A stretch of DNA of 64,000 nucleotides from a bacterium (GCA_028712895.1 JAQTPL010000001.1:3681-67680), one strand, 5' to 3'. Counted from the stretch's first letter, positions 9,684 to 44,350 are shown. Made by a program: numbers and translations. Notes: generated by a model from the sequence alone, not told the origin.

Positions 9684-9700
9684 ATAATTAATAATGCTTT

Positions 9701-11701: not shown

Positions 11702-11953
11702 CTATTCTAGCAGAAGAGCCTTAATCTCCGCAAGTTTCCTTTGATAATCAATTCTATCTTCAACAAAAGGCTTATATGTTTCCGGATCAATCTCCAGTAG
11801 TTCCGTAAATTCACAAATCTTAGGCTTATTATACGAAATAAACTCTTGGTACGATGATGAATGCCAGGAATTAGGATGTTCCACTAAATTTGCCGTGGCT
11901 GGATTTAAATGGATATACCTGGTCAAATGTAAGAGCTGGGCATCTGTCTCCAC
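11702..11953 (-). pseudogene. truncated RAYT/IS200-like transposase (C-terminal 83 aa only)
   Basis: QLLHLTRYIHLNPATANLVEHPNSW...YQRKLAEIKALL aligns at about 50% identity with the C-terminus of the full-length RAYT at 12089..12745. The HuH N-terminal half is absent. Confidence 0.6.
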
Positions 11954-11983
11954 TAAAACATTTTTGAACTTGACCTAATAATT

Positions 11984-12082
11984 GGGGTCAGGGCTAAACT
12001 ATCAACAAAAACTTCCCCCCGTACACCCTATCAGACACTCCTCCACCCCGTAGACCCTTTCAGACACCGCGTAGGTGTCCGG
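11984..12082. repeat. REP-like composite repeat (copy B), inverted relative to copy A with a 42-nt internal duplication
   Basis: This is the reverse complement of 3435-3512, apart from an inserted partial repeat (ccgtacaccctatcagacac...). Confidence 0.7.
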
Positions 12083-12088
12083 AGGGGT

Positions 12089-12745
12089 TCATGATTCTAA
12101 AATAAGATGCTTTATCTGTGCCAGCTCTCTTTGATATCCTACGCGATCTTTTACAAAAGATGTATAATCCTCAGCTTTAATATCAACGACATCTGTAAAT
12201 CTGCAGAATGATTTGCTGTTACTAATGCCAGTATATTCTTGATAAGAAGAATTTATCCACTCTTTTGGATCATTTACGATGAAAGATGTCACCGGATTCA
12301 AATGTACATATCTGGTCAGGTGCAATAATTGAGTGTCATCCTTAACCAGGACATTCTTAAATCTGCTCTCCCATAATGGACCCTTCCGTCCATGTTTTTT
12401 ATTGAAATATTTGGTATAGCTATTTAGAATATTATTCATGAACTTAGAAATACCTTCATCCTTTGTTTGTTTCAATATAAGATGCAGATGTGTAGGCATT
12501 AGACAATAAGCAATTGTTTCAACAGACTCTTCTTCGGCAGAGATTTGATCATTAAGTATTCTCTGCTTAGGCTCGGAGAGTTCTAGGAACTTAGCGAACC
12601 TTATTGCTGGTTTTTCCGCATGATAATAGCGGATCACTTCTATCATTCTGTTAAATTCTTCCTGGTCATTGAAAATCACATACCCGGCAATACTTTTCGT
12701 AAAAACATGGTAAACCTGCCCATTTGCCAGCGCTTCTTTTCTCAT
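12089..12745 (-). CDS. REP-associated tyrosine transposase (RAYT) / IS200-like TnpA
   Basis: The HuH motif is CLMPTHLHLIL and the catalytic Tyr region is LHLTRYVHLNPV. The protein is 218 aa. Confidence 0.8.
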   Translation of the reverse strand: MRKEALANGQVYHVFTKSIAGYVIFNDQEEFNRMIEVIRYYHAEKPAIRFAKFLELSEPKQRILNDQISAEEESVETIAYCLMPTHLHLILKQTKDEGISKFMNNILNSYTKYFNKKHGRKGPLWESRFKNVLVKDDTQLLHLTRYVHLNPVTSFIVNDPKEWINSSYQEYTGISNSKSFCRFTDVVDIKAEDYTSFVKDRVGYQRELAQIKHLILES

Positions 12746-30857: not shown

Positions 30858-31052
30858 CTATTTTGGTTCTTGTTTCTTGATCGTTGATATTTTTATCGGT
30901 ACATACAATGGGCACCAAGAGATCAACGCTGTAATGATCGGTATCAGGCCGAGAGCACCCCACCAGCTATCATAAAACAGGCCAGCAAAAATGATTGCCA
31001 CGCCGATGACCCATCTGACTACCTTATCCGCGCAACCGATATTCTTAACCAT
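30858..31052 (-). CDS. DUF2892 family small membrane protein (YgaP-like)
   Basis: MVKNIGCADKVVRWVIGVAII matches the DUF2892 N-terminal pattern. Confidence 0.55.
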   Translation of the reverse strand: MVKNIGCADKVVRWVIGVAIIFAGLFYDSWWGALGLIPIITALISWCPLYVPIKISTIKKQEPK

Positions 31053-31070
31053 AAAACTCTCCTTTCTTAT

Positions 31071-31280
31071 CTATTTCTTGCCGAGGGGCTTGCCGCATTT
31101 GGGACATTTTAGCGACGAGACACGGAAGCCCGGCTTTAATGGCACTTCTGTCTGGCAAGCAGAGCAGATCCCGGCGATCTTGGCTGTTTTGGTATTGACA
31201 TTGCCTTCATCAGTGACTTTGGGAGCGCCTTGCTCATACATTTTGACTGCTTTTACAGGATTCTGTCCATTTCTCTGCAT
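31071..31280 (-). CDS. small zinc-ribbon protein
   Basis: It has CSACQ...CPKCG. Confidence 0.4.
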   Translation of the reverse strand: MQRNGQNPVKAVKMYEQGAPKVTDEGNVNTKTAKIAGICSACQTEVPLKPGFRVSSLKCPKCGKPLGKK

Positions 31281-31309
31281 TTCTCGTATTACCTCCTAGT
31301 GAAAGTTAT

Positions 31310-31798
31310 TTATGCTTTAGATAGTTCTTCCAATGCTTCCTGGACACTTTCTTTGTGCTTGCGGCTTTCGTATCGGGACAGGATCTTGTAGGCGCAAGGC
31401 ACCACAAACAAGGTCATCAGGGTTGATAATGTCATGCCCCCGATCACCACAATGGCCATGGGGATGCGTGATTCTGAACCAGGACCAATGGCCAGTGCTG
31501 CCGGTATAGCCGCGACGATAGTCGTAATAGCGGTCATCATAATGGGCCGCAGGCGCAGAGGGCACGCATATAACAAGGCCTCGACGACTCCCAGGCCCTT
31601 TTCCCGCTGCTGGGACTGGAACAGCTGTTCCTGCTGTATTTTCAGGTCGCTGTTCTTAGCTGCAGCCAATGATATGCACTGCTCCAGGGTAAGTGGCGCA
31701 GGGTCAGCTGCAAAGGCTGAAGGCAGGATGAATAAGAGACAGAAGCCCAGGTATATGACCAATCTGTGATAAAATATCATATCGTAATTAGGCTCCAT
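31310..31798 (-). pseudogene. in-frame relic fusing an outer-membrane-factor (TolC-like) N-terminus to an RND permease C-terminus
   Basis: Residues 1-60 are a signal peptide plus LTLEQCISLAAAKNSDLKIQQEQL, the start of an OMF. Residues ~75-162 are PLRLRPIMMTAITTIVAAIPAALAIGPGSESRIPMAIVVIGGMTLSTLMTLFVVP, the last TM helices of AcrB-type RND pumps. Confidence 0.55.
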
Positions 31799-32022
31799 TA
31801 TTGGTTAGTGTTGTCGTATTGGCGCTCAGAGGCGTTTATCTTTTTATTGAGATTGTCCACTTTCTCCTGGGCTCTTTGCACTACACCTTGTGAGACTGCA
31901 GTTTCCCCGTTTTTCTGGACCGTGTCTTTTAATACAACTTTCATATAGACATAAACCATCAGCATGATGATGATCACTGCCACTAGCATTTCTACCAGTC
32001 CCACTCCTTTATTTCGGCTCAT
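31798..32022 (-). CDS. small protein with prepilin-like N-terminus (hypothetical)
   Basis: KGVGLVEMLVAVIIIML resembles the G-F-T-L-I-E class III signal. Confidence 0.3.
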   Translation of the reverse strand: MSRNKGVGLVEMLVAVIIIMLMVYVYMKVVLKDTVQKNGETAVSQGVVQRAQEKVDNLNKKINASERQYDNTNQ

Positions 32023-32034
32023 AATTTCCTCGGC

Positions 32035-32586
32035 TTAGTAATTTGAGCGGTTCTTGTTTCGTTTGATAACAGCCATAACATATACTACGGTGACGACTAT
32101 GACCAGAAGGCCAAAGATAATTGCTAATAATGGTATTGATGATCTAGCTGGTGCGGATACTGGTACTGTTTCCGTGCTTGCCGTCACATTTACGGGTGTC
32201 GTTGTATCTGCAGTTACCACTGGTTCAGCTACCGTCGCTACAGCTTTTTTAGGGGTAACCTTTTTCTTAACCGGGGCGACAGTCTTTTGCACCTTTTTCG
32301 GCGTAGTTTTAGAGGTGACAGCAGTGGTTTTAGCGGGTGATTTTTTGGCCGCCGCCGGGGCTGACAGTTTGCGACCGTTGATAGTATCGATCTCCGCTGG
32401 AGTAAAGGTTATAACCCCGTAACTGGTGACGACTTTGATCTCATTTTTAGTCCGTTCGGCTATAGTGCCATTAAGTACGCGCCCGTTTTTCAGCTTAATA
32501 GTCGCAGCCAGGGCTGAAACAGTGATGATCAGTAATAGTGCTGTACCGACAAGCACAGCTAATTTATTTTTCTTTGCGTTTATCAT
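32035..32586 (-). CDS. Thr/Pro/Lys-rich secreted protein with C-terminal TM anchor (hypothetical)
   Basis: It has a signal peptide, a low-complexity TPKK region and a C-terminal hydrophobic helix. Confidence 0.4.
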   Translation of the reverse strand: MINAKKNKLAVLVGTALLLIITVSALAATIKLKNGRVLNGTIAERTKNEIKVVTSYGVITFTPAEIDTINGRKLSAPAAAKKSPAKTTAVTSKTTPKKVQKTVAPVKKKVTPKKAVATVAEPVVTADTTTPVNVTASTETVPVSAPARSSIPLLAIIFGLLVIVVTVVYVMAVIKRNKNRSNY

Positions 32587-32672
32587 TAAAATATCTCCTT
32601 ACCTCTTTTGCCGGGCTTTTCAGGGGCACAATACTTATGATTAGAGTATTGTGCCCCTGCAGTAGCGCTATC

Positions 32673-33308
32673 TTATTTCTTTATTTTTGATTCATCGATG
32701 CTGATCTGGAGCTCAACCCGACGGTTCATCGCGCGGCCTTCTGCCGTATCATTGGAAGCGACAAAATTGGTTGCGCCCATGCCTACCGGCTCGATCGAGG
32801 CTGCTGGTACGCCGCGCGCGATCATGGCTAAACGCACAGCTTGCGCTCTCTGCATAGACAAGCGCTGGTTGAGGTCGCTGCCGCCAACACTGTCAGTATA
32901 ACCGACGACGATTATTTTGTCTTCGGGATACTTTTTGATAATGTCGGAGATCTGGTTCACGCTGTCTACAGCTGCCGGTTTCAGGTCAGCTTTGCCGGAA
33001 TCAAATAAAAGATTGCTCTTCAAAGTTGTGATGATACCGTTTTCAGTCCGTTTGGTTTCAGCGAGTACTTCAAGTTCCTTGGCTTGTTTGTCCAGGTAAT
33101 TGCCAACGCCGCCGCCCAAGAGCGCGCCAGCTGCCGCGCCGATAAGGGCGCCCTGGCCGGTTTTGCCGGATTGGTGGCCGATCACAGCTCCCGCGATGCC
33201 GCCTATGGCGGCGCCGGTGCCTGCCCCGATAGCGGTACGTTTGCCGGGTGTGGTGCAACCTGCGGCAACTAAGGCCAGCAAAAGAAATACTACTAATAGG
33301 TTCTTCAT
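32673..33308 (-). CDS. OmpA-family lipoprotein with glycine-zipper N-domain
   Basis: The lipobox is VAAGC. OmpA-C is FDSGKADLKPAAVDSVNQISDIIKKYPEDKIIVVGYTDSVGGSDLNQRLSMQRA. Confidence 0.8.
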   Translation of the reverse strand: MKNLLVVFLLLALVAAGCTTPGKRTAIGAGTGAAIGGIAGAVIGHQSGKTGQGALIGAAAGALLGGGVGNYLDKQAKELEVLAETKRTENGIITTLKSNLLFDSGKADLKPAAVDSVNQISDIIKKYPEDKIIVVGYTDSVGGSDLNQRLSMQRAQAVRLAMIARGVPAASIEPVGMGATNFVASNDTAEGRAMNRRVELQISIDESKIKK

Positions 33309-33391
33309 GTTTATTCTCCTTTTATTTTTTATTAGGTCATACGCAACTTGCTGTTATCGCCCCCCTTCACAGTTTATTTTGTGCTTATAAG

Positions 33392-33730
33392 CTATTGTTT
33401 GCTGTGACGGTATTTGATCACTTTGACTTTCTCCAGGGTGATCAGCCCTTCGGTGACTGTTTCATCAAGAAAAGGCATCAGCAGGTCTATTTTTTCCTGC
33501 ACATCCACCAACTCTATCACTATCGGCAGGTCATTGGATAATTGCAATATTTTGGAAGTATGCATACGGCTGTCAGCGCCGAAGCCCATGATCCCGCGCA
33601 TGACTGTCGCGCCAGCCATATTGAGTTCCCTGGCTTTAAGCACTATTTGTTCATAGAGAGGCTTACCCTGGTATTTATCAGTCTCGCCTACAAAGATCCT
33701 TAGCAGCATACCTTCTTCAGGTAGTTTCAT
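33392..33730 (-). CDS. DUF190 (PII-like) protein, CrcB-associated
   Basis: LLRIFVGETDKYQGKPLYEQIV...GATVMRGIMGFG...LPIVIELVD matches the DUF190 consensus. Confidence 0.75.
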   Translation of the reverse strand: MKLPEEGMLLRIFVGETDKYQGKPLYEQIVLKARELNMAGATVMRGIMGFGADSRMHTSKILQLSNDLPIVIELVDVQEKIDLLMPFLDETVTEGLITLEKVKVIKYRHSKQ

Positions 33731-33739
33731 GGAATTCTC

Positions 33740-34126
33740 CTATTTCAGCATGAATGACAATAATTCTTTGGATAAAATAACGCCAGCTACGACCAAAACC
33801 AAACCCAGGACATTGGTAGTGATGATATTGATAAAGGCATATCCGGTTTCGCCGGCGCGGAAAAGATTGATAGTTTCCAGGGCATAGCTGGAAAAAGTAG
33901 TAAATCCTCCCAGGATACCCACTAAAACAAAGACCCGCAGGTCAGGAGCTATGGAAACGCGCTCAGAGAGCTCCCATAAAATACCGATCAGGCAAGAGCC
34001 GATAAGATTTACCCACAACGTGCCCCAGGGAAATACCCCGGCAGTTTGTTTGTGGGTCCAGTCGGTCATCAGATACCGTAATCCTGAACCTATGCCGCCT
34101 CCGATGATGGCATATAGTAATGGCAT
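33740..34126 (-). CDS. crcB: fluoride ion channel CrcB/FluC
   Basis: It is a 128-aa 4-TM protein with GGGIGSGLRY and GFTTFSS motifs. Confidence 0.85.
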   Translation of the reverse strand: MPLLYAIIGGGIGSGLRYLMTDWTHKQTAGVFPWGTLWVNLIGSCLIGILWELSERVSIAPDLRVFVLVGILGGFTTFSSYALETINLFRAGETGYAFINIITTNVLGLVLVVAGVILSKELLSFMLK

Positions 34127-34139
34127 TCACATTCTCCTA

Positions 34140-34439
34140 TTATCTCAGATGCTGCAGCAATTCGCTGGTTTTCTTGATATTAAACCCTTCTTCACTTTTG
34201 ACCATCATGTAGAAACTGCACTCGAAGCAATTGTTATTAAGGAGCGCGAACGAACCTTGGGTTTTGCCATAACACAATGTCCCGGCTACCGCCCAACAGG
34301 CCCGGCCGGCATTTTTGCCGCCGTGCACGCCGTTCAACCTGGTTTCCGTAAAAGCCGAGCACACCCCTTTTTCATCCTCTTTGCAGCCGCCGTACTCCCG
34401 GCCGCATTGCATAAATTCCCAGCAATTAAGTTTGGCCAT
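34140..34439 (-). CDS. small cysteine-rich protein, paralog 2 (unknown family)
   Basis: The 99-aa protein has 8 Cys in NCWEFMQCGRE...GVC...GVHGGKNAGRACWAVAGTLC...NCFEC. It lies 13 nt upstream of crcB. Confidence 0.55.
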   Translation of the reverse strand: MAKLNCWEFMQCGREYGGCKEDEKGVCSAFTETRLNGVHGGKNAGRACWAVAGTLCYGKTQGSFALLNNNCFECSFYMMVKSEEGFNIKKTSELLQHLR

Positions 34440-34487
34440 ATTCGATCATCTTCCTCTGTTTAAAATGAGGGATGTTACTAAATAGAA

Positions 34488-35891
34488 TCAGTCTTTTGGT
34501 TCAGTGCCGCTCCAGCAGTAAAGGCAAAGTTGCTTGCGGGGCAAGCCAATGGCTTTGACCATATTTTCGATGGTCTGGTACCGCAGGGTGGTCACTTCTA
34601 TATCTCTGGCGATCCATTCCACCATCTTCTTGTATTTCCTGGAGTTAGGATCCAAATATTCGGAAACATCTTCTATATCCCTGCCTTCCAGCGCTTTGAT
34701 CGCGCGTCTGGCTACCAGCTCATTGATGTTGCGGGTAGAAAGGCAGAATTTGCACGGGAACATGAGCGGCGGACAGGCTGGCCGCACGTGCACTTCCTTG
34801 GCGCCGCAATCCCACAGCTTGTTGACCGTAAAATTCTTCAACTGGGTGCCGCGGACGATCGAATCTTCGCAGACCACGATACGGTTGCCTTTGATGATCT
34901 CTTTGATCGGCACTAATTTCATCTTGGCGATAAGGTCCCGGGTTTCCTGGGATGGCGGCGTATAGCTCCGGCCATAGCCGGGTGTGTATTTCACCAGCGG
35001 CCGGCGGAATGGCTTACCTGATTCCATGGCATAACCCAAAGCATGGGCTAACCCTGAATCAGGGACGCCGGTGACCACATCCACTCCTATATCTTTGTCT
35101 TTCCTGGCCAACGCCCGGCCGCAGCGTTCTCGGACCACTTCCACGTTGATATTCTCATAGTCAGACGCGGGAAATCCGGTATAGATCCAGAGGAAAGAGC
35201 AAATCTGGTTGGTCCTACCGCCCTTTTTTTTGGCGACCAGCCCTTTGTCGGTAATGAGCGTGATCTCTCCTGGCTGTAGGAATTTGACAGTTTCAAATCC
35301 CAGGTTCGGGAACGCGTGATTCTCGGCAGTGACGGCCCAGGTGTCGTTATTCTTGCCGATCACCAGCGGCGTGTACCCACGGCGGTCGCGGGCCGCGTAA
35401 ATGCCGTCTTTGTTGAGCAGAAGCAAGGAACATGATCCTTCGATCAGGCTAAACATCTTTTCAATACCGTCAACAATATCCTTGCCGGTGATGATCAGTT
35501 TGGCGATCAGCTCGGTCACATTCACGCCGTCTTTCCCTGCTTCGCTGAAAGAATAGCCTTTGTCAAACAGTATTTTAGTCAGCTTTTCCTTGTTTTCAAT
35601 GAGTCCTGAAGTTACCAGGCAGAACGGGCCGAACCGGGAGTTGATGTACATAGGCTGTTCGTTTGAGTCGCTGATCACGCCTATGCCTTTGTTGCCTTCC
35701 ATATGGCGATAATCTTCGTAGAATTTTGATTTGAACTGGGTCTGGCTAATATTGTGTATTTGCCGGGTGAAGTTTTGTCCCAGCACGGCCATGCCGCCGA
35801 ATTCAGTACCAAGATGGGAATGGTAGTCAGTACCGTAAAACAAAGTCTGGATGCAGTTAGATTTTGAAACAACCCCGAAGATTCCACTCAT
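34488..35891 (-). CDS. amidophosphoribosyltransferase (PurF)-like protein with Ser in place of the N-terminal Cys nucleophile
   Basis: It starts MSGIFGV (codon AGT where PurF has Cys) and has the PRTase motif VVCEDSIVRGTQ. C-terminal Cys pairs CKFC and CLYC are present. Confidence 0.7.
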   Translation of the reverse strand: MSGIFGVVSKSNCIQTLFYGTDYHSHLGTEFGGMAVLGQNFTRQIHNISQTQFKSKFYEDYRHMEGNKGIGVISDSNEQPMYINSRFGPFCLVTSGLIENKEKLTKILFDKGYSFSEAGKDGVNVTELIAKLIITGKDIVDGIEKMFSLIEGSCSLLLLNKDGIYAARDRRGYTPLVIGKNNDTWAVTAENHAFPNLGFETVKFLQPGEITLITDKGLVAKKKGGRTNQICSFLWIYTGFPASDYENINVEVVRERCGRALARKDKDIGVDVVTGVPDSGLAHALGYAMESGKPFRRPLVKYTPGYGRSYTPPSQETRDLIAKMKLVPIKEIIKGNRIVVCEDSIVRGTQLKNFTVNKLWDCGAKEVHVRPACPPLMFPCKFCLSTRNINELVARRAIKALEGRDIEDVSEYLDPNSRKYKKMVEWIARDIEVTTLRYQTIENMVKAIGLPRKQLCLYCWSGTEPKD

Positions 35892-35924
35892 TTCATCATA
35901 CTCCTTTGTATGAAGATGTAGTTG

Positions 35925-36719
35925 TTAGTTCTTTTGTTGGCTTATCATATCCTGTTCTGTGATGTCAGGGTGATGGTACCTCTTCCTAACCGCTGTCTTC
36001 TTGCCGGCTTGTATCGCTTCCTGCGGGCACCATTGCAGGCAGCCCACGCATTGTTCGCAATGATGCAGCCAGACAGGTTTGCCGTCACTCATTTTGATGT
36101 TTTTAACCGGGCATACTTTTTCGCAGACGCCGCAGCTATTGCACTTCTCATCTACCCAGAAAGCTTTATCTCCTTCGGGGATCTTAAGTGAGCCGTGTTT
36201 GTAGATAAAGCTACTGAATAAGGAATTAACCAAAGCATTGTTGGCGCTGATAGGCACGCTCTTGTTGGCTTTCACTATCTCCGCGATCTCCTTGATGGCA
36301 GCGGCTTCCCTGGCAAAATGCTTTTGCTGTTCTGCCGTTGATTTAGCGCCGTACATCGGCGTATAGTTGCCAGGCATCTTGATACCGAATCCGGCTGAGA
36401 GATCGATCTTGTTGGTTGCGAGGAGATCTTTCAACATCAGCAGTGTGCCTGCCGGGAATCCTCCATAATTAGTGATCCCAAAGACATAGGTTGCCGCAGG
36501 CACTTGCAATTTGCGGGCAAAGTTGGCGACGATCAACGGCGGTCCCCATATATATACAGGAAAGACTATGCCGACCCGGTCCGCGGACGGGGTGATGCTT
36601 GGCTGGTCTATTACTTTGGCGATCGGGATGATCTCAGTGTCACCCAGCTGGGCGGCCAGGTCTTTGGCTATTTTCAGGGTATTACCGGTACCGGTAAAAT
36701 AATACAATAGAGTTTTCAT
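35925..36719 (-). CDS. flavodoxin-like domain protein with C-terminal 2x[4Fe-4S] ferredoxin motifs
   Basis: The N-terminal flavodoxin-like region is KTLLYYFTGTGNT. The two clusters are CNSCGVCEKVCP and CEQCVGCLQWCP. Confidence 0.7.
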   Translation of the reverse strand: MKTLLYYFTGTGNTLKIAKDLAAQLGDTEIIPIAKVIDQPSITPSADRVGIVFPVYIWGPPLIVANFARKLQVPAATYVFGITNYGGFPAGTLLMLKDLLATNKIDLSAGFGIKMPGNYTPMYGAKSTAEQQKHFAREAAAIKEIAEIVKANKSVPISANNALVNSLFSSFIYKHGSLKIPEGDKAFWVDEKCNSCGVCEKVCPVKNIKMSDGKPVWLHHCEQCVGCLQWCPQEAIQAGKKTAVRKRYHHPDITEQDMISQQKN

Positions 36720-36759
36720 AAAATTGTTTCCCCATTTCCTGGACTGTGAACGGCAGTTA

Positions 36760-39700
36760 TTACCAGTTCTTAGCGATGGCCTCTGATAGCAGGGTGAGGT
36801 AGGTAGCAGGCTGGATCTTGTTCTGGTGGCAGATTTCCAGGATCAACTTCTCCTCCACGGTTTGTTGGTAGAATATTTTTTCCTGCAATTCGGATTGGCT
36901 TTTAATCGACGGGTATTTAATATTAGTATCAGTCATCGCCCGGTCCTTGGCATCAATGAGACTGTCGTAAATATCACGTCGTTTAGATTCGCCGGACGGC
37001 AGCTGCGGCGCGATATTTGATCCGCGGCACAGAGTCTTGCGGACGAATCTTGTTTCACCGGAGAATGTCAGTACATGGTACCAGCCTTTTTGCTGGCCGT
37101 TATATTTGAACACATCGCCTTTGAGGCCGATTAAAAGGGCTTGGGCATTCGTGTCAGGCACAGGCTTGATCTCGGCATAAGGCGCATTAATGACGACATA
37201 GCTGTATTCTGCCAGGTCTTCCCTTTCTTCTTCAGCTTTGGCTTTTAGTTCAGCTTCTTTGGCTATCTGTTCTGCTTCTATTTTAGCTTTCAATTCAGCT
37301 GCTGCTTTGGCTTTAGCGTCAGCTTCTTGTTTCATTTTTACTTCACTGGCTTTTCGTTCAGCTGACAGGCGTTCTTTTTCTGCCAGTGCTTTCTGTTCCG
37401 CTTCCTGTTTTTCGAGCTTCGACTTACGCTCAGCTTCCTGCGCTTGCCGCAGGACTTCCTGCTTGGCCCGGCGGTCGAGTTCCTGTTGTGCTTTTTGGGC
37501 TGCTTCTTCGGCTCTGGCTTTTAGTTCTGCTTCTTGGCGGTCTTTCCGTTCTTCAGCTTCACGCAGGATGCGTTCCTGCTCCTGTACTTTTTGCCAGGCA
37601 GACAGCTCATTCATGGTCATTGATTTGGCTGACGATACATCCACGAATCCCATGGCCATGGCTGTGCCGGTAGGTACTTTGATCTCATACCAGTTGTCCC
37701 TGATCCAATTCAGCTTAAAAGCTTCATTTTTTTCAGCTACGTGCAATACGCTAGCCCGAATATCAGGGGCAGTGCGTATCACGGCGTTGTTATCAGATAT
37801 CACGATATATTTATCATTGACATAGGCTTCCATTTTAGCTTTGGCTTCAGCTTCGATCCTGGCTTTGGCCTCGGCTGCTTCTTTGGCTTTGCGTTCAGCT
37901 TCAATAAGGGCTTTTTCTTCAGCTTCCTGTCGGGCTTTCAGTTCTGCCGTGGCTTTGGCTTTAGCCTCAGCTTCCAGTTTCAGTTTTTCTTCACGCGCTT
38001 TCTGTTCCGCTTCCAGCTTGGCGATCAGTTGAGCTTCTTTTAAGGCTTTCTCTTCAGCCTCTTTTTTGATCTTTTCCAGGCGCGCTTCTTCTTGCTGTTG
38101 CCTGAGGGTGGTTAATTCCGTGCTTGAGAGGACTTTGACGACTGTGTTGTGAATATAGGCAGAGCCGGTATTCAGGGCTATTTCATACCATTCCTTGCCC
38201 CTGGAGATGATCTTGAAGCTCTGGCCAGGTTGGGCTTTCTGCACTATTTCGGCAGTCTTGCCGGCAGTTTTCCTGATATTAGTATCCTTAGATTGTACGA
38301 ATACGTATTTGTCTTTGAGCCACTCTTCTTCAGCGGCTCTTTCAGCTTCGAGCTTCAACTTGCGCTCAGCTTCCTCTCGGGCTTTCAGTTCAGCAGCTGC
38401 CCGGAGCTGGCGGGCTTTTTCCTCATTTTCTTTTTGCTGCGCCAGTCGGTATTCATTAAGCTCCTGTTCAGTCATCAATTTAACCAGGGTAGATAAGACA
38501 TAGGCTGTCATTGTAGCTGTACCTTTAGGAACGGCAATCTGGTACCAGGGAACATTTTGCTTATTCGGGGCGATCCAGGTTACTTTAAGAGAGACATCAT
38601 TGTTCGCTTTGGCGATAATAGTTGCTGTTTGTTGTGGTGCCTCTCTAAGATTGGTATTTGCCAGGGTGGTCAGTATATATTTATCTTTTACATAATCTTC
38701 CATTCTGGCTTTTTCTTCGGCTGCTTGCTTTTCGAGCTTCGACTTACGCTCAGCTTCCTCATGGGCTTTCAGTTCAGCGGCTGCCCGGGCCAGCCGTTCT
38801 TTTTCTTCTTTGGCTTTCCTGGCAGTTTCTTCCCTGGCTATCCGCTCTGTTTCCTGTCGCTCTTTGGCCTCGGTTTCAAGACGGGCCTTCTCTGCCGCAG
38901 CTTTCTGCTGGGCTGAACGGTATTCATTAAGTTCCTGTATTGTCATTAATTTGGTCACGGTAGAAGATACATATGCCGGTATGGTCGCAGTACCTGACGG
39001 GATCGCTACCTGGTACCAGGGCACATTTTGCTTATCTGGGGTGATCCAGGTTACTTTCAGGGAAACATCGATTTTTGCTTTGGCTATGATCGCAGAGTTT
39101 TTATCCGGTGCCAGCCGGCAATTAGTATTATCCAGGGTAGTGAGGATATATTTATCTTGGACATAATCTTCCATTCTGGCTTTTTCTTCGGCTTCCTGCT
39201 TTTCGAGCTTCGACTTACGCTCAGCTTCCTCGCGGACTTTCAGTTCAGCGGCTGCCCGGTCAGCTTCCTGCCTGGCTCTAGATTCAGCTTCCTCACGGAG
39301 CTTTAGTTCTTCGGCCGCGCGGAGCTTGCGAGCTTTTTCCTCAGTTGCTTTTTGCTGCGCCAGGCGGTAGTCATTAAGCTGCTTCTTGGTGAGTAATTTA
39401 GCTAATGTGGAAATGATGTATCCTTCCACTGTTTGCGTACCAGAGGATAAACTCACTTGGTACCACGGCACATTGAGCCGGTCTTTGATTATCCAGGTGA
39501 CTTTGAATGATTCACCGCCGGCTACCTTCGTGAGCGGCGGCGCGTTTTCATCCGGAGCTGTCCTGACGTTTGTATTATCGACCATGGCCAGGGCATATTT
39601 ATCGGCGATAAAGGCCTTTGTTTTAGCATCGTCTTTGGCCTGTTGCCTGGCCTGCAGTTCCGCCGCTGCTTTAGCTTTCGCTTCGGCTTCCTGGCGCGCT

Positions 39701-42700
39701 TTCAGTTCTTTTGCCGCCCGGAGTTCACTTGCTTTGCGCTCTGCTTCTTCAGCGGCTGTTTTTTCCGCTGCAGTGATGATTTTGGTAACTCCGGCATGGA
39801 CAAAGACTGTACCTGAGGAAGTGCTGATTTCGTACCAGTCCCTCGTGCGTGAGTTTAGTTTGTAGGTTGTCCCAAGCTTGGCTTTTTCTAAGATCGCGGC
39901 ATTCTTGCTGGCTGACTTGCGCAAATTTGTATTATCAATAGTGATCAGGACATACTGTTCCGGCGCCGGGATTGGCGGTACGGGAATCCTGGCCAGGAGC
40001 AAAGCATCGAGTTCTTCCTTGGTGATCGGTTTGGCCAGCGATGAATGAACATAGGCTTTTATGCTTTGTTTACCAGAGGGGACATCGACCTGATACCAGG
40101 AATTCTTGCCTTCATTGTTTTCAATCCAGGTAAGCTTGTAATAATCCCCGGCTTTGGACCGGGTAATGATTGGTGATGATGTTGACGGGGCTGACCTGAG
40201 ATTGGCATTTTCCGCCTGGATCAGTATGTATTTATCCTGGACCTGGGATTCTATTTTGGCTTTGGCTGCAGCTTCTTTTTTGGCTTTTTCTTCCGCTGCC
40301 AAAGATGCTTTCAGTTCCAATTCTTCCTTAGCTTTGCGCTCAGCTTCCAGTTTAGCCTGTTGTTTAGCTTCCAGCCTGGCTTTTTTCTCAGCTTCTTCTT
40401 TTAGTTTTTCCTGGCGGCGCAATTCCTGCTGTAGGCGATAGTCGTTGAGTTCCTGTCCCGTCATCAGTTTGACCTGTTTGATGGGGACAAAGACCGTACC
40501 TGAAGACGTATCCACGCCGTACCATTCCGCGGTCCTGGTCACGATCTTGAAACTGGTGTCAGGCAGCGCCGTGCCGCTAACAAGAGCATTTTTATTCGGC
40601 GCCGGATAAACGCTGGTTTGCTTATTAACTAATATATATTTATCTTTGAGCCAGGCAATTTCCCGGGCTTTGCGTTCTTCTTCTTCCTTGGCTTTTAAGG
40701 CTGCTGCTTCTTTGCCCCGCAGGTCAGCTTCAGCCCGGAGTAGTTTTTCCCTTTCCAGTTTGGCTATGCGGGCTGCTTCCAGGCGGGTTTTCTCTGCTTC
40801 AGCTGCCCTGCGCTCAGCTTCCTCCTGTTTAGCCAGTTCTTCAGCTGCGCGTTGTTTGCGCAAAAGTGCCGCGCGCTCTTTCCTGATCCCTGATTCAACG
40901 TCAGCCTCGGTAAGTATGTCAACCAAGCCTCTATGGATGAAAGCGTTCTGGTCCGGAGGCAGGAATATCTCGTACCAGTCCTGGTTCCTGGATAGCAGCT
41001 TGAAAATATCAGCTCTTTTTGCGTTGGCCAATATATTTGCAGTGAGCTTCGGTTCAGCGCGCAGGTTGGCATTGGTAGATTTAACCGCTACATATTTATC
41101 TTTGCAAAAGGCTTCATCAATAGCTTTAGCTTCTGCTTCCTGGCGCGTTTTTAGTTCTTCTGCTTCACGTTTCTTCTGTACTGCTTCTTCGCGGGCCTTT
41201 TTAGCCGCTTCTTCTTTAGCCAGCTGTTCAGCTTCGCGTTTGGCTTTAGCTTCTGCTTCCAGGCGTTCTTTTTCTGCGGCGGCTTTTCTTTCAGCAGCCC
41301 GCTTTGCTTCCAAGTCATTAGCCGTGATGACATCAGCCAGGCTACTGGCTATAAAAGCGGTGCCGGAAGACAAACTGATCTCGTACCAGTCTTTGGCCCG
41401 GGAAACAAGCTTGAAAGATTCGCCATTCCTGGTTTTATTTATGATCGTCGCAGTTTTGTTAGGAGACTTGCGCAAGTTTATATTATTCTTGTTTATAATG
41501 ACATATTTATCAGCCAGCCATTCTTCTTCCCGGGCTTTAGCTTCATTTTCCTGTTTTTCGAGCTTCGATTTACGCTCAGCTTCCTCACGGACTTTTAATT
41601 CGGCCGCTTCCCTGGCCCGCTGGTCAGCAGCTTCTTTAATCCTGCGTTCATTTTCCTGCCTGGCTTTTAATTCTTTTTCTTTACGAGCTTTCTCTTCAGC
41701 AGCTTTTTGTTTTTGCTCAGCTAAACCGGTTTCGCTGAGTATTGTGCCCAGGTTATGATTGATAAAAGCTGTGCCGCTGGAGAAATTGATCTCATACCAA
41801 TCTGCCCGGCGCGAAACCAGCTTAAATGAATCACCGATATTGACCGTAGCAAGGATCTTGCCCTTGATATTCGGCACATTTTGCAGGACTGCTTTCCTGA
41901 CGTTGATGAGCACATATTTATCTTTGAGCCATTCTGCTTCCTGGGCTTTGATAGCGGCTTCCCGCTTAGCGGCATCTTCTTTGATCTTTCTTTCATTTTC
42001 CTGCTTTAATTTTAATTCTTCTTCTTTGCGGGCTTTTTCTTCCGCAGCTTTCTTTTCGAGTCGCAGTTTACGTTCCGCTGCCTGGCGCTCCTGTTTCAGC
42101 TGCGCCAATTTATTAGGACCAGCCAGGACATCAGCTTCGGTGATGATCTCCGCCAGGCTGGAGGCTATAAAGCCATTCTGTTCCGGCGGCAAGAATATTT
42201 CATACCAGTTATTCTGGCGTGCCAGTAATTTATAGGTGTTGTCTTTATTGGCCCGGTCCAGGATGCGGCTGTTCTTGTCCGGAGCTTCGCGCAGGTTGAC
42301 CATATTGGCAGTGACCAATACATATTTATCCTTGATCCAGGCGTCTTTTTCAGGTTCAGCCAGAACCTTTGTTTCCACTGCCAGGACCGGTAATGCCGGT
42401 GGAGCAGGCTGCGGCGCTAGCTGGGGTTCAACATCAGGCTTTTCGTTTTTCATCGGCTGGGCTAACTTGTCTGAGATAAAAGCCGTGCCAGAAGACGTGA
42501 GCACTTCATACCAGTCCTTAAAGACCCAGACCAGCTTAAAAACAGTCCCCTGTACCGCAGTAGTGATCACCTTGGATGTGTCATTGGCTTTAGTATATAA
42601 CTTTGCCGACTTTGCCGTCACGGCAACAGTATTCACTTTAAATTGTTTGGCGGATCTGGTAGCTTCATTGATCGCTGCTGTCAGTTCAGTTTCTTTAACG

Positions 42701-43542
42701 ATCTTTACTACTTTGGCCAGGACGAACGCATGCCGCTTGTCAGGAAGTAAGACCGTACACCAATCGCTTTCCTGGGAAAGTATACGGTAATGATCACCTG
42801 GTTTAGCAGTGACCATGATCTTGGCGGTAATATTTGGTTCTTGCCGCAGGATAATATCGTTCTTCATAGCTACAGCATATTGGGCTGCTGCTGGCTGAGG
42901 TTGAGGAGCTGTTTTAGGAGGAATGGCTGCTTTGCGCTGTGCTTTATGCTTTGCCAGCTGGGCCGGCGTGATGATCTTGGCTGCACTCACCGGGACATAA
43001 CTGATCTTATTATTGGGTAAAACTATTTCATACCAGGAACCGGAAACCTTCCGGCTTAATTTGAAGGCATTGTTGATTTTAGCCTGCGCGATGACCGGAC
43101 CGTTTGTTTTTGGGGTTTTGCGGATATATGAACCAGAACTGGTAATAAGCACATAGTCTTTTTCCTGCTCTATTGCCGTTGGCGCAGGTTTTGGTACAAG
43201 GATCTTGCCGCTTTTAGATTTATCCAGTTTTTTGACGCGGGCGTACTTTTTAGACAGGTACCCTTCTTTATTGGCAGAGAGTTCAATGAGGTACCAGTCT
43301 GGCAATTCTCTGAGGACTTTAAAGATCTCGCCTTTGAAAGCGATCTCGGAGATCTTGGCTTCCGGATCCGGGGCTGCCCTGACCTCAGCTTTTTTGATCT
43401 CAACAATGACATGGCCAGGCGCAGCTTGGTCAGGTTTGCGTTGGGCAGACCAAAGGGAGGTACAGAGCAAAGCGGCTACGCTGAGGGTGAGAAAAAAATA
43501 AAATATCTTGATGATACAAGTCTTATTTTTTGTCATATTCAT
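36760..43542 (-). CDS. giant secreted repeat protein (2260 aa): ~17 SH3b-like domains separated by Glu/Lys/Ala/Arg-rich coiled-coil linkers
   Basis: It has a signal peptide. The unit KY(V/I)L...N(L/I)R.AP....I.....G..FKL.....DWYEI....G.AFI is repeated. Linkers resemble EAERKSKLEKQ. Near-identical 31-nt DNA repeats occur at about 37408, 38728, 39200 and 41555. Confidence 0.85.
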   Translation of the reverse strand: MNMTKNKTCIIKIFYFFLTLSVAALLCTSLWSAQRKPDQAAPGHVIVEIKKAEVRAAPDPEAKISEIAFKGEIFKVLRELPDWYLIELSANKEGYLSKKYARVKKLDKSKSGKILVPKPAPTAIEQEKDYVLITSSGSYIRKTPKTNGPVIAQAKINNAFKLSRKVSGSWYEIVLPNNKISYVPVSAAKIITPAQLAKHKAQRKAAIPPKTAPQPQPAAAQYAVAMKNDIILRQEPNITAKIMVTAKPGDHYRILSQESDWCTVLLPDKRHAFVLAKVVKIVKETELTAAINEATRSAKQFKVNTVAVTAKSAKLYTKANDTSKVITTAVQGTVFKLVWVFKDWYEVLTSSGTAFISDKLAQPMKNEKPDVEPQLAPQPAPPALPVLAVETKVLAEPEKDAWIKDKYVLVTANMVNLREAPDKNSRILDRANKDNTYKLLARQNNWYEIFLPPEQNGFIASSLAEIITEADVLAGPNKLAQLKQERQAAERKLRLEKKAAEEKARKEEELKLKQENERKIKEDAAKREAAIKAQEAEWLKDKYVLINVRKAVLQNVPNIKGKILATVNIGDSFKLVSRRADWYEINFSSGTAFINHNLGTILSETGLAEQKQKAAEEKARKEKELKARQENERRIKEAADQRAREAAELKVREEAERKSKLEKQENEAKAREEEWLADKYVIINKNNINLRKSPNKTATIINKTRNGESFKLVSRAKDWYEISLSSGTAFIASSLADVITANDLEAKRAAERKAAAEKERLEAEAKAKREAEQLAKEEAAKKAREEAVQKKREAEELKTRQEAEAKAIDEAFCKDKYVAVKSTNANLRAEPKLTANILANAKRADIFKLLSRNQDWYEIFLPPDQNAFIHRGLVDILTEADVESGIRKERAALLRKQRAAEELAKQEEAERRAAEAEKTRLEAARIAKLEREKLLRAEADLRGKEAAALKAKEEEERKAREIAWLKDKYILVNKQTSVYPAPNKNALVSGTALPDTSFKIVTRTAEWYGVDTSSGTVFVPIKQVKLMTGQELNDYRLQQELRRQEKLKEEAEKKARLEAKQQAKLEAERKAKEELELKASLAAEEKAKKEAAAKAKIESQVQDKYILIQAENANLRSAPSTSSPIITRSKAGDYYKLTWIENNEGKNSWYQVDVPSGKQSIKAYVHSSLAKPITKEELDALLLARIPVPPIPAPEQYVLITIDNTNLRKSASKNAAILEKAKLGTTYKLNSRTRDWYEISTSSGTVFVHAGVTKIITAAEKTAAEEAERKASELRAAKELKARQEAEAKAKAAAELQARQQAKDDAKTKAFIADKYALAMVDNTNVRTAPDENAPPLTKVAGGESFKVTWIIKDRLNVPWYQVSLSSGTQTVEGYIISTLAKLLTKKQLNDYRLAQQKATEEKARKLRAAEELKLREEAESRARQEADRAAAELKVREEAERKSKLEKQEAEEKARMEDYVQDKYILTTLDNTNCRLAPDKNSAIIAKAKIDVSLKVTWITPDKQNVPWYQVAIPSGTATIPAYVSSTVTKLMTIQELNEYRSAQQKAAAEKARLETEAKERQETERIAREETARKAKEEKERLARAAAELKAHEEAERKSKLEKQAAEEKARMEDYVKDKYILTTLANTNLREAPQQTATIIAKANNDVSLKVTWIAPNKQNVPWYQIAVPKGTATMTAYVLSTLVKLMTEQELNEYRLAQQKENEEKARQLRAAAELKAREEAERKLKLEAERAAEEEWLKDKYVFVQSKDTNIRKTAGKTAEIVQKAQPGQSFKIISRGKEWYEIALNTGSAYIHNTVVKVLSSTELTTLRQQQEEARLEKIKKEAEEKALKEAQLIAKLEAEQKAREEKLKLEAEAKAKATAELKARQEAEEKALIEAERKAKEAAEAKARIEAEAKAKMEAYVNDKYIVISDNNAVIRTAPDIRASVLHVAEKNEAFKLNWIRDNWYEIKVPTGTAMAMGFVDVSSAKSMTMNELSAWQKVQEQERILREAEERKDRQEAELKARAEEAAQKAQQELDRRAKQEVLRQAQEAERKSKLEKQEAEQKALAEKERLSAERKASEVKMKQEADAKAKAAAELKAKIEAEQIAKEAELKAKAEEEREDLAEYSYVVINAPYAEIKPVPDTNAQALLIGLKGDVFKYNGQQKGWYHVLTFSGETRFVRKTLCRGSNIAPQLPSGESKRRDIYDSLIDAKDRAMTDTNIKYPSIKSQSELQEKIFYQQTVEEKLILEICHQNKIQPATYLTLLSEAIAKNW

Positions 43543-43599
43543 CCCTGTAGAGTTAATATTTTATTCTACACAAATTCCTGATTTAAGTCAATGAAAAAT

Positions 43600-43629
43600 A
43601 AAAAAACCCGCCAAGTTTAAATTGGCGGG
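43600..43629 (-). terminator. intrinsic terminator
   Basis: On the minus strand, cccgccaatttaaacttggcggg is followed by ttttttattttt. Confidence 0.7.
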
Positions 43630-43653
43630 TTAAGGTGATCATTTGCTGAGCGA

Positions 43654-43746
43654 TTATCCTTCCCTTTTTTTTAGCTCTTTATCTATAAATAACATTGCGG
43701 CATTGATCTGTGCGTTGATCGCATCTTGCATCTTCTTGCTGATCAT
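43654..43746 (-). CDS. candidate 30-aa small ORF with strong SD, followed by its own terminator
   Basis: On the minus strand, GGAGG lies 5 nt before the ATG. It encodes MISKKMQDAINAQINAAMLFIDKELKKREG. A terminator follows 20 nt downstream. Confidence 0.3.
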   Translation of the reverse strand: MISKKMQDAINAQINAAMLFIDKELKKREG

Positions 43747-43819
43747 AAAATCCTCCGCTAGATGGTTGTTTCTTTAGTTTCTATTTATACAATTTATAAG
43801 GTAATAAGTCAAGTTATCT

Positions 43820-44347
43820 TTACCGGTAATTGATACATTGTAAAGGCAAAGCAAAATCAAGACCATGCAGGTACTGTATGACCGCCTGTAGTTCATCTTT
43901 TTTAGCGCTGGACACTCTCAGTTTTTCGCCTTCGATCTGGACCTGGACTTTGACATTGAGTTTTTTGATCAGCTGGACCAGTTCTTTGGCTTTTTCTTTT
44001 TCCAGGCCGACAGCGATATTAGCCAGCTGCCTGATAGTTCCGCCAAGGGCTGTTTCTTCAGGTTTATAGGCCAGGGCTTTCGGCGAGATCTTCCGGGAAA
44101 CGAAACGGTTGGATAATATTTCCTTGAGAGCGCGGAGTTTGTAAGCGTCATCAGCAGTCAAGGTAATGGTTTTTTCAGTTTTGTTTAATTCTATTCCAGC
44201 TTTAGAGTTTTTAAAGTCATAGCGCTGGGAGATTTCCTTGAGCGCCTGGTTAACTGCATTATCGACTTCCTGCAGGTCAACCTGCGAAACTACGTCAAAA
44301 GAAAAAGTAGAGGCCACTAGTATCTCCTTTTTTTGGGTTTTGATCAA
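43820..44347 (-). CDS. yajQ: YajQ family (UPF0234) nucleotide/c-di-GMP-binding protein
   Basis: STFSFDVVSQVDLQEVDNAVNQALKEISQRYDFK is the typical YajQ N-terminus. The true start is probably internal. Confidence 0.75.
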   Translation of the reverse strand: MIKTQKKEILVASTFSFDVVSQVDLQEVDNAVNQALKEISQRYDFKNSKAGIELNKTEKTITLTADDAYKLRALKEILSNRFVSRKISPKALAYKPEETALGGTIRQLANIAVGLEKEKAKELVQLIKKLNVKVQVQIEGEKLRVSSAKKDELQAVIQYLHGLDFALPLQCINYR

Positions 44348-44350
44348 CTA

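What the first reader, a model, noticed from the sequence alone, without database searches (positions are those of the whole stretch)
33392..36719. Co-directional cluster: flavodoxin/2x[4Fe-4S] protein, PurF-like protein with Ser replacing the Cys1 nucleophile, Cys-rich mini-protein, CrcB and DUF190
Seen in sequence:
- Five genes run on one strand with gaps of 33, 48, 13 and 9 nt.
- The PurF-like protein begins MSGIFGV (codon AGT), whereas class-II amidotransferases require an N-terminal Cys.
- Its PRTase motif and C-terminal Cys pairs are intact.
- No fluoride riboswitch-like sequence was found in the 48-nt or 13-nt gaps upstream of crcB.

Inference:
- Either this is a Ser-nucleophile or ammonia-dependent PurF paralog (or a sequencing error at one base), or a non-canonical enzyme.
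- Co-transcription with an electron-transfer protein and the fluoride exporter is unusual.
Basis: partly seen in the sequence, partly recalled or inferred. Interest (0 to 1): 0.5.

Follow-up and report, generated by a model that had tools for sequence, protein, structure and literature searches.

The report
Cysteine-less PurF, likely ammonia-dependent
The odd 'PurF' is a genuine member of a widespread, uncharacterised branch of the first purine-synthesis enzyme that has lost its glutamine-splitting site and probably uses free ammonia, while its neighbours (a ferredoxin and a fluoride-export module) are there by local accident rather than as a functional unit.

Summary
All four sequence observations hold: five minus-strand genes with gaps of 33/48/13/9 nt, a PurF-like ORF starting ATG AGT (MSGIFGV), intact PRTase and Cys motifs, and no fluoride riboswitch. 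The Ser is not a sequencing error: 120/120 close homologs and 77/77 readable species-level orthologs have Ser (AGC/AGT) at codon 2. It is not a substitute nucleophile either. In the wider clade this position is Gly/Ser/Ala/Thr, and the rest of the glutamine site is lost (Arg26 to Leu, RYxT loop deleted, oxyanion Asn and Asp127 not conserved). The PRPP site, flexible loop and four [4Fe-4S] cysteines are 92-100% conserved. Gly-type homologs occupy the purF slot of full pur operons (purE-purC-X-purM-purN-...-purD-purL). Orthologs lie next to purM/purD, next to a canonical purF (Planctomycetota), or next to carB and DUF1846/PyrJ, an ammonia-only CTP synthase. Best reading: a glutaminase-dead, probably NH3-dependent phosphoribosylamine synthase. 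The gene cluster is not a functional unit: EFR1 is adjacent in 3/80 species, two-CW in 2/80 and crcB-DUF190 in 2/80. I could not determine whether this genome also has a canonical purF.

The parts
35925..36719 (-). EFR1-family protein: N-terminal flavodoxin-like domain plus a C-terminal 2x[4Fe-4S] ferredoxin domain (264 aa).
   Evidence: NF038196 scores 8e-80, 268 bits against a cut-off of 75, covering residues 5-249. Pfam gives Flavodoxin_5 and Fer4 families. It is adjacent to the PurF-like gene in only 3 of 80 orthologous loci.
34488..35891 (-). Cys-less PurF-family protein (467 aa). The Ntn-fold N-domain has a dismantled glutamine site. The type-I PRTase domain is intact and carries the [4Fe-4S] ligands. 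Predicted glutamine-independent (NH3-dependent) phosphoribosylamine synthase.
   Evidence: Scores against known PurF: TIGR01134 207.6 bits, below the cut-off of 350; phmmer to B. subtilis PurF 1AO0 5.6e-52; Foldseek best hit 1AO0, E 2e-27.

Pur-operon context of homologs is.
35886..35888 (-). Codon 2, AGT = Ser, at the position of the catalytic Cys1 of class-II amidotransferases.
   Evidence: Read directly. Ser is present in 120/120 homologs. The codon is AGC or AGT in 77/77 readable orthologous loci.
34845..34877 (-). PRPP-binding motif VVCEDSIVRGT (residues 339-349).
   Evidence: It aligns with B. subtilis VMVDDSIVRGT. D343, S344, R347 and G348 are 88-98% conserved in the diverse Cys-less set.
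34515..35201 (-). Span holding the four Cys that align with the B. subtilis PurF [4Fe-4S] ligands. C231 is at 35199-35201, C380 at 34752-34754, C456 at 34524-34526 and C459 at 34515-34517.
   Evidence: These residues align to B. subtilis Cys236, 382, 437 and 440. They are conserved in 74-78 of 79 Cys-less sequences.
34140..34439 (-). Stand-alone two-CW domain protein (99 aa, 8 Cys, two Cys-Trp motifs). Function unknown.
   Evidence: NF045718 scores 2.6e-28, 98 bits against a cut-off of 35. There are 295 homologs of about 100 aa in several phyla. Three sampled neighbourhoods show no link to crcB or purF. It is adjacent to the PurF-like gene in 2/80 loci.
33740..34126 (-). CrcB fluoride channel (128 aa).
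   Evidence: TIGR00494 scores 98.6 bits against a cut-off of 80.45. PF02537 scores 3e-28.
33392..33730 (-). DUF190 (COG1993) protein (112 aa), paired with crcB.
   Evidence: PF02641 scores 6.9e-40. crcB and DUF190 also lie side by side in L012, L013 and L022.

Best explanation
The five-gene run is real but composite.

Its centrepiece is a member of a large, uncharacterised clade of PurF (PRPP amidotransferase) homologs.
- The N-terminal Ntn-fold domain has lost the catalytic Cys1 and the whole glutamine-binding and oxyanion apparatus.
- The PRPP-binding PRTase domain, its flexible loop and the B. subtilis-type [4Fe-4S] ligands are fully kept.

The protein most likely still catalyses the first step of purine synthesis, PRPP to 5-phosphoribosylamine. 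It would take nitrogen directly as ammonia rather than from glutamine hydrolysis.

- Shown here: the sequence features, their conservation, and the pur-gene context of homologs.
- Inferred: the reaction and the nitrogen donor.

The flanking genes are not a functional partnership. The EFR1 ferredoxin, and a two-CW/CrcB/DUF190 module that was inserted or retained only in this genus, may be co-transcribed with it for lack of terminators.
For: 1. The Ser is a fixed trait. All 120 closest homologs (74-94% identical) start MSG[ILVMA]FG. Codon 2 is AGC or AGT in 77/77 readable orthologs from different species.

2. The glutaminase site is dismantled. Against B. subtilis PurF: Cys1 to Ser, HRG to HLG, the RYATAGGG loop deleted, HNGN to TSGL, SDTE to NVTE. 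In 79 Cys-less sequences position 1 is S/G/A/T/D, the RYxT loop is absent in 79/79, and the Asn102 and Asp127 columns are variable. In the 59 diverse representatives position 2 is G 19, S 16, A 12, T 4, and no alternative conserved nucleophile appears.

3. The PRTase site is under strong selection. R254, G258, S279, G280, G286, R308, R318, K325, D343, S344, R347, H368, P374 and the four Cys are 92-100% conserved and match B. subtilis PurF.

4. Homologs sit in purine context.
- MGGFFG-type homologs occupy the purF slot of purE-purC-X-purM-purN-IMP cyclohydrolase-purH-purD-purL.
- A Muribaculaceae homolog follows purL.
- Among 80 orthologous loci, purM is adjacent in 13 and purD is nearby in 5.
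- A canonical purF-purM-X arrangement occurs in about 10 Planctomycetota loci.
- carB is nearby in 15 loci and DUF1846 in 15, in at least 8 different gene orders. In all, 36/80 loci have a nucleotide-synthesis neighbour.

5. DUF1846/PyrJ was shown to be an ammonia-only CTP synthase (bioRxiv 10.1101/2024.09.24.614635).

6. E. coli PurF Cys1 mutants lose glutamine-dependent activity but keep ammonia-dependent activity (Mei and Zalkin 1989, as cited in PMC3261824).

7. The cluster is not conserved. EFR1 is adjacent in 3/80 loci, two-CW in 2/80 and crcB-DUF190 in 2/80. A 92%-identical relative has a Por_Secre_tail gene where the two-CW/crcB/DUF190 module lies here.
Against: - There is no biochemical or genetic evidence for any member of the clade. 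I found no paper on it in the searchable library.
- In Planctomycetota the protein sits beside a canonical PurF, so a non-redundant role (regulatory, heteromeric, or a different substrate) is possible.
- Within the Omnitrophota/Planctomycetota orthologs the N-domain is very well conserved (for example GTDYHSHLGT and SQSQFKSKF). That hints at a selected function beyond a scaffold.
- This window holds no other pur gene.
- I could not establish whether this genome has a canonical purF.
- The AlphaFold model is poor in the PRTase domain (pLDDT below 50), so an ammonia entry path could not be examined.
Confidence: 0.62

Rival explanations
1. Ser2 acts as an N-terminal nucleophile (as in Ser/Thr Ntn hydrolases), so the enzyme is still a glutamine-dependent PurF.
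For: Ser is invariant in the close orthologs. Position 2 is always a small residue that allows Met removal. The Ntn fold is retained: N-domain pLDDT is about 85-95, and the GlmS glutaminase domain 1xff matches at TMt 0.71.
Against: - The glutamine-binding loop (Arg, Tyr, Thr) is deleted in 79/79 sequences. The oxyanion Asn and the Asp that binds the alpha-amino group are not conserved, and Arg26 is Leu.
- Homologs that sit in the purF slot of full pur operons have Gly at this position.
- E. coli C1S has no detectable glutamine-dependent activity (PMC3261824).
Confidence: 0.05
2. It is a non-catalytic or regulatory paralog. For example, it could form mixed oligomers with a canonical PurF, or sense PRPP or nucleotides, rather than making phosphoribosylamine itself.
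For: It lies in the same cluster as a canonical PurF in about 10 Planctomycetota loci. Identity across phyla is unusually high, 72-94%. TIGR01134 scores below its cut-off.
Against: The catalytic PRTase residues and the flexible loop are as conserved as in true PurF. In other lineages it is the only PurF-type gene inside a complete pur operon.
Confidence: 0.12
3. It is an active PRTase that joins PRPP to a nucleophile other than ammonia, or receives nitrogen from a separate partner protein. The product or pathway would then differ from canonical step 1.
For: The N-domain keeps conserved surface motifs of unknown role. The protein is linked to carAB, glmS and pyrJ in many Omnitrophota loci rather than to pur genes.
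Against: No dedicated glutaminase or other partner is consistently adjacent. The purF-slot position in purECFMNHDL-type operons argues for PRA as the product.
Confidence: 0.12
4. The five genes form a functional operon that links electron transfer, a PurF-like enzyme and fluoride export.
For: The genes share a strand and are tightly spaced. No minus-strand terminator-like site was found in 32500-37200. The order is conserved in L012 and L013.
Against: The arrangement occurs only in the 2-3 closest relatives of 80 species. A 92%-identical relative lacks two-CW/crcB/DUF190 at this site. Two-CW homologs elsewhere have unrelated neighbours. Other orthologs have entirely different neighbours.
Confidence: 0.03

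Closest known systems
B. subtilis-type [4Fe-4S] glutamine PRPP amidotransferase (PurF; PDB 1AO0/1GPH)
   Same: Two-domain architecture of an Ntn-fold N-domain plus a type-I PRTase domain. Shared motifs are the PRPP motif, the flexible-loop motif GR(S/T)(Y/F)..PSQ..R...K and TGVPDSG. All four Fe-S cysteine ligands are present. It is the best sequence hit and the best fold hit.
   Different: There is no Cys1 and no propeptide. The glutamine-binding loop is deleted, and the oxyanion Asn and Asp127 are lost. About 27% identity. It scores below the TIGR01134 cut-off.
E. coli PurF Cys1 mutants (C1S, C1A)
   Same: Ser stands in place of Cys1. The mutants keep ammonia-dependent PRA synthesis and lose glutamine use (cited in PMC3261824). 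This is the mechanistic precedent for the proposed activity.
   Different: Those are laboratory point mutants with an otherwise intact glutamine site. Here the whole site has decayed in a natural, widespread clade.
Mlab_0150 of Methanocorpusculum labreanum (Brown et al. 2011, PMC3261824)
   Same: A PurF-like protein with Ser for the active-site Cys, found alongside a canonical PurF and judged not to be the glutamine-dependent enzyme.
   Different: It was described as a recent duplicate of that organism's own purF. I did not test whether it belongs to the clade found here.
PyrJ (DUF1846), ammonia-only CTP synthase of S. pneumoniae
   Same: It is an ammonia-dependent alternative to a glutamine amidotransferase step of nucleotide synthesis. 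Its gene lies within 6 kb of the Cys-less PurF in 15/80 orthologous loci, directly adjacent in most.
   Different: The fold and the reaction are unrelated. The link is by gene neighbourhood only.
crcB-DUF190 fluoride-resistance pair
   Same: CrcB scores above its equivalog cut-off. DUF190 follows it directly, here and in L012, L013 and L022.
   Different: No fluoride riboswitch precedes it. A two-CW domain gene sits immediately upstream only in this genus.

Membership tests
Class-II (Ntn, PurF-type) glutamine amidotransferase | N-terminal Cys nucleophile, exposed after Met or propeptide removal | tested here: not met
   Codon 2 is AGT (Ser). The in-frame stop lies 12 codons upstream with no Cys codon between. 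Ser is conserved in orthologs.
Class-II (Ntn, PurF-type) glutamine amidotransferase | Glutamine-binding and oxyanion residues: Arg26, the Arg/Tyr/Thr loop, Asn-Gly, Asp127 | tested here: not met
   The residues are Leu27, an 8-residue deletion, Ser95-Gly96 and Val125. The deletion is present in 79/79 Cys-less sequences.
Class-II (Ntn, PurF-type) glutamine amidotransferase | Ntn alpha-beta-beta-alpha fold of the N-domain | tested here: met
   GATase_7 scores 3.7e-12. The N-domain is modelled with high confidence. Foldseek matches 1AO0 and the GlmS glutaminase domain 1xff at TMt 0.71.
PurF equivalog (TIGR01134) | Score at or above the curated cut-off of 350 bits | tested here: not met
   207.6 bits, aligned end to end over residues 3-462.
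PurF (PRPP amidotransferase) PRTase domain | PRPP-binding acidic motif and flexible-loop residues | tested here: met
   VVCEDSIVRGT, GRSYTPPSQETR..K and TGVPDSG align with B. subtilis PurF and are 88-100% conserved in the clade.
PurF (functional role in purine synthesis) | Gene in a pur operon or neighbourhood | tested here: inconclusive
   Not met in this window: there are no pur genes. Met for homologs: the purF slot of full operons, purL adjacency, and purM/purD adjacency in 13 and 5 of 80 orthologous loci.
PurF (functional role in purine synthesis) | Catalyses PRPP plus a nitrogen donor to phosphoribosylamine | not testable with these tools
   This needs an enzyme assay or genetic complementation.
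B. subtilis-type [4Fe-4S] PurF | Four Cys ligands (B. subtilis 236, 382, 437, 440) | tested here: met
   C231, C380, C456 and C459 align to them. They are conserved in 74-78 of 79 Cys-less sequences.
CrcB fluoride channel | Score above the TIGR00494 cut-off | tested here: met
   98.6 bits against 80.45.
Fluoride-riboswitch-controlled operon | RF01734 upstream of crcB or of the cluster | tested here: not met
   No match at E<=10 in 31000-45000. No match at gathering score in the window, L012, L013 or L022.
EFR1-family ferredoxin | Score above the NF038196 cut-off | tested here: met
   268.4 bits against 75.
two-CW domain protein | Score above the NF045718 cut-off | tested here: met
   98.2 bits against 35. 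Two Cys-Trp motifs, C6W7 and C48W49.

The most novel reading that the evidence does not exclude
The Cys-less PurF clade is a natural, widespread, glutamine-independent (ammonia-dependent) phosphoribosylamine synthase. It replaces or supplements canonical PurF in anaerobes, including Omnitrophota, Planctomycetota, Bacteroidales and the unidentified organisms whose pur operons carry it. Together with the ammonia-only CTP synthase PyrJ, which is often encoded next to it, it would form an ammonia-based route through nucleotide-synthesis steps that textbooks assign to glutamine amidotransferases.
Probability: 0.5. Interest if true: 0.65.

Novelty: new variant of a known kind. Interest (0 to 1): 0.5.

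Why it matters
Glutamine-dependent PurF is treated as the universal committed step of purine synthesis. It is used as such in genome annotation and metabolic reconstruction.

A large natural clade that cannot hydrolyse glutamine, yet sits in the purF slot of pur operons, would have three consequences:
- Many anaerobes would feed ammonia directly into purine synthesis.
- Annotation pipelines currently name these proteins 'amidophosphoribosyltransferase' without noticing the missing nucleophile.
- Nitrogen-regulation logic (glutamine as the signal) would differ in these organisms.

The repeated adjacency to PyrJ gives a concrete, testable hypothesis of a coordinated ammonia-dependent nucleotide toolkit.

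Tried and rejected
- **Fluoride riboswitch or other RNA.** Rfam at E<=10 on 31000-45000, and at gathering score on the whole window plus L012, L013 and L022, found nothing relevant.
- **Sequencing error at codon 2.** Rejected by comparative data. Reads were not available.
- **An earlier start codon supplying a Cys.** Excluded by the upstream in-frame stop.
- **Conserved operon.** Neighbourhoods of orthologs and of two-CW homologs show no conservation of the five-gene arrangement.
- **Canonical purF in the same genome.**
  - tblastn of the window found only the Cys-less gene.
  - The exact protein is not on record in the contig index.
  - A third homolog search with a Planctomycetota canonical PurF returned only Planctomycetota proteins.
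  - Co-occurrence in Omnitrophota and in this genome therefore stays open.
- **Structure.** The AlphaFold model from 41 close homologs is good for the N-domain but poor for the PRTase domain. I did not use it to judge an ammonia channel.
- **Literature.** Searches for two-CW, EFR1, DUF190 with fluoride, PurF paralogs and ammonia-dependent PRA synthesis gave only Brown et al. 2011 and the PyrJ preprint as relevant.
- **Promoter and terminator scan.** Counts are within shuffle expectation and were not used as evidence beyond 'no terminator seen'.
Full report
**1. What is in the sequence**

Five ORFs lie on the minus strand: 35925-36719, 34488-35891, 34140-34439, 33740-34126 and 33392-33730. They are separated by 33, 48, 13 and 9 nt. 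Profile searches assign them as follows:

| ORF | Assignment | Score |
|---|---|---|
| 35925-36719 | EFR1-family flavodoxin/2x[4Fe-4S] ferredoxin | NF038196, 268 bits, cut-off 75 |
| 34488-35891 | PurF-like protein | TIGR01134, 207.6 bits, cut-off 350; Pfam GATase_7 only |
| 34140-34439 | two-CW domain protein | NF045718, 98 bits, cut-off 35 |
| 33740-34126 | CrcB | TIGR00494, 98.6 bits, cut-off 80.45 |
| 33392-33730 | DUF190 | PF02641, 135.7 bits |

The PurF-like gene starts AAAGGAG-N9-ATG AGT GGA ATC TTC GGG GTT. The nearest in-frame upstream stop is the ferredoxin's TAA, 12 codons before the ATG, and no Cys codon lies between them. A mis-called start or a B. subtilis-style propeptide therefore cannot supply a cysteine.

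No fluoride riboswitch or other credible RNA family was found at E<=10 in 31000-45000. None was found at gathering score in the whole window or in three related loci.

**2. The Ser is real and fixed**

The 120 best homologs are 74-94% identical and come mostly from Omnitrophota, with some Planctomycetota. All of them begin MSG[ILVMA]FG.

A scan of species-representative genomes returned 80 orthologous loci at 72-93% identity. In the 77 loci where the start could be read, codon 2 is AGC (59) or AGT (18). A sequencing error is excluded.

**3. The Ser is not a replacement nucleophile: the glutaminase site is gone**

I aligned the protein with B. subtilis PurF (1AO0; numbering reconstructed from the HMMER alignment). 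The differences in the glutamine site are:

| B. subtilis PurF | Window protein |
|---|---|
| Cys1 | Ser2 |
| His-Arg26-Gly | His-Leu-Gly |
| RYATAGGG loop (carries the glutamine-binding Arg, Tyr and Thr) | deleted |
| HNGN (oxyanion Asn-Gly) | TSGL |
| SDTE (Asp127) | NVTE |

An exhaustive search of 50%-identity cluster representatives found a broad clade with the same features. I aligned 79 Cys-less and 18 Cys-containing sequences:
- Position 1 in the Cys-less set is S 36, G 19, A 12, T 4, D 1.
- The RYxT loop is absent in 79/79.
- The Asn102 and Asp127 columns are variable.

Among the 59 diverse representatives, position 2 is G 19, S 16, A 12, T 4. No other residue of the N-domain stands out as a conserved alternative nucleophile; Cys13, for example, is present in only 34/59.

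The PRTase half looks like a working enzyme. R254, G258, S279, G280, G286, R308, R318, K325, D343, S344, R347, H368 and P374 are 92-100% conserved and identical to the B. subtilis residues. So are the four Cys that align with the B. subtilis [4Fe-4S] ligands (C231, C380, C456, C459).

An AlphaFold model is confident for the N-domain but poor for the PRTase domain. Its best fold matches are B. subtilis, Arabidopsis and E. coli PurF. The N-domain superposes on the GlmS glutaminase domain at TMt 0.71.

**4. What the clade does: context**

In this window there is no other pur gene. Homologs are more informative.
- Two MGGFFG-type homologs, one of them in a cluster of 3,295 sequences, sit exactly in the purF slot. 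The operon order is purE - purC - X - purM - purN - IMP cyclohydrolase - purH - purD - purL. They have Gly at position 2, no HRG, RYxT or HNG motif, and an intact DDSIVRG.
- A Muribaculaceae homolog directly follows purL.
- Among the 80 orthologous loci, clustering of neighbouring ORFs and Pfam checks show:
  - purM adjacent in 13 loci and purD nearby in 5. Omnitrophota loci L029, L033, L067 and L069 read X-purM-purD.
  - carB nearby in 15 loci and carA in 4.
  - glmS in 1 locus.
  - DUF1846 in 15 loci, in at least eight different gene orders.
  - In all, 36 of 80 loci carry a nucleotide-synthesis neighbour.
- In about ten Planctomycetota/Phycisphaerae loci the order is canonical purF - purM - X. 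The canonical purF there has a propeptide followed by CGLFGIFG, then LQHRGQESAG and GHVRYSTTG. In that phylum the Cys-less protein is therefore a paralog that coexists with a normal PurF.
- DUF1846 has been characterised as PyrJ, a CTP synthase that uses ammonia but not glutamine (bioRxiv 10.1101/2024.09.24.614635).
- E. coli PurF with Cys1 replaced by Ser or Ala loses glutamine-dependent activity but keeps ammonia-dependent activity (Mei and Zalkin 1989, as cited by Brown et al. 2011, PMC3261824). The same paper noted one Ser-for-Cys PurF paralog, Mlab_0150, and set it aside.

**5. Most likely mechanism**

- Shown: an intact, strongly conserved PRPP site and Fe-S site; a decayed glutamine site; and pur-operon context in homologs.
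- Inferred: the protein binds PRPP and makes 5-phosphoribosylamine with free ammonia. The Ntn-fold domain would serve as a structural or regulatory scaffold.

I give this reading about 0.6 confidence. The rivals are:
- A regulatory or heteromeric paralog, suggested by coexistence with canonical PurF and by the very high conservation of N-domain motifs in the orthologs.
- A PRTase with another nucleophile or a separate nitrogen-donating partner.
- A Ser nucleophile, which is very unlikely.

**6. The cluster itself**

EFR1 is next to the PurF-like gene in 3/80 species, two-CW in 2/80 and crcB-DUF190 in 2/80, plus one case 5 kb away. All of these are the closest relatives, at 92% identity or more.

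In one of them (L005/L014) a Por_Secre_tail gene lies between the PurF-like gene and the OmpA-like gene, at the site of the two-CW/crcB/DUF190 module. Other orthologs have unrelated neighbours.

Two-CW homologs are about 100-aa proteins found in Nitrospirota, Verrucomicrobiota, Ammonifex and others. Their neighbourhoods are unrelated to crcB or purF.

No minus-strand terminator-like site was seen across the run, so co-transcription is possible. There is no comparative support for a shared function. crcB followed by DUF190 recurs as a pair and needs no riboswitch to be ordinary.

**7. Novelty and limits**

The proteins are already in databases under the name 'amidophosphoribosyltransferase'. 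No NCBIfam model other than TIGR01134, below its cut-off, matches them. I found no paper that characterises them.

I rate this a new variant of a known kind.

Two points remain unresolved:
- Whether this genome, or Omnitrophota in general, also has a canonical PurF.
- The nitrogen donor, which can only be settled by experiment.

Noticed in passing
L021, L028, L031, L040-L042, L047, L051, L053, L065, L080, L082, L085, L086, L089 (related loci): DUF1846/PyrJ, reported as an ammonia-only CTP synthase, lies next to or near the Cys-less PurF ortholog in 15 of 80 species. It appears in at least eight different gene orders, often together with carB/carA and once with glmS.
   Followed up: partly
L044, L060, L063, L066, L070, L071, L074, L081, L083, L091: Planctomycetota/Phycisphaerae loci carry canonical purF (Cys, HRGQ, RYSTTG) - purM - Cys-less PurF in one cluster. 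A membrane protein of about 340 aa with no Pfam hit follows in nine loci.
   Followed up: partly
window 3657-12745: A low-GC stretch (0.30-0.36 against about 0.47 elsewhere) looks like a defence or mobile island. It encodes a RelA_SpoT-like protein, a GmrSD-type endonuclease, an SDH/ClpP-like protease, a Vsr endonuclease next to a C5 cytosine methylase, and an IS200-like transposase.
   Followed up: partly
window 36760-43542 (minus strand): A giant 2260-aa ORF directly upstream of the cluster. It is built of repeated SH3_3-like modules separated by long Lys/Glu/Ala-rich coiled-coil-like spacers. Relatives carry a 1906-aa version at the same place.
   Followed up: no
window 31310-31798 (minus strand): A 162-aa ORF. 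Its C-terminal half matches only the last 80 positions of AcrB/ACR_tran, and its N-terminal half looks like the start of an outer-membrane factor. It is probably the remnant of a deleted RND efflux operon.
   Followed up: no
L005/L014 at about 9460-9971 and 5276-5968: In a 92%-identical relative the EFR1 gene is called as only 149-169 aa, although tblastn aligns 232 residues. It may be truncated or disrupted there.
   Followed up: no
window 35892-35924: The EFR1 gene and the PurF-like gene are in the same reading frame, separated only by TAA and 11 sense codons. No significance is known.
   Followed up: no
L007 3539-4306: In a Nitrospirota contig the two-CW gene is preceded by a second small ORF of similar size (105 aa). 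In L009 it precedes a FIST protein and a PAS histidine kinase, which hints at a sensory or regulatory role for two-CW proteins.
   Followed up: no
whole window: No Rfam family, tRNAs included, reaches gathering score anywhere in the 64 kb.
   Followed up: no
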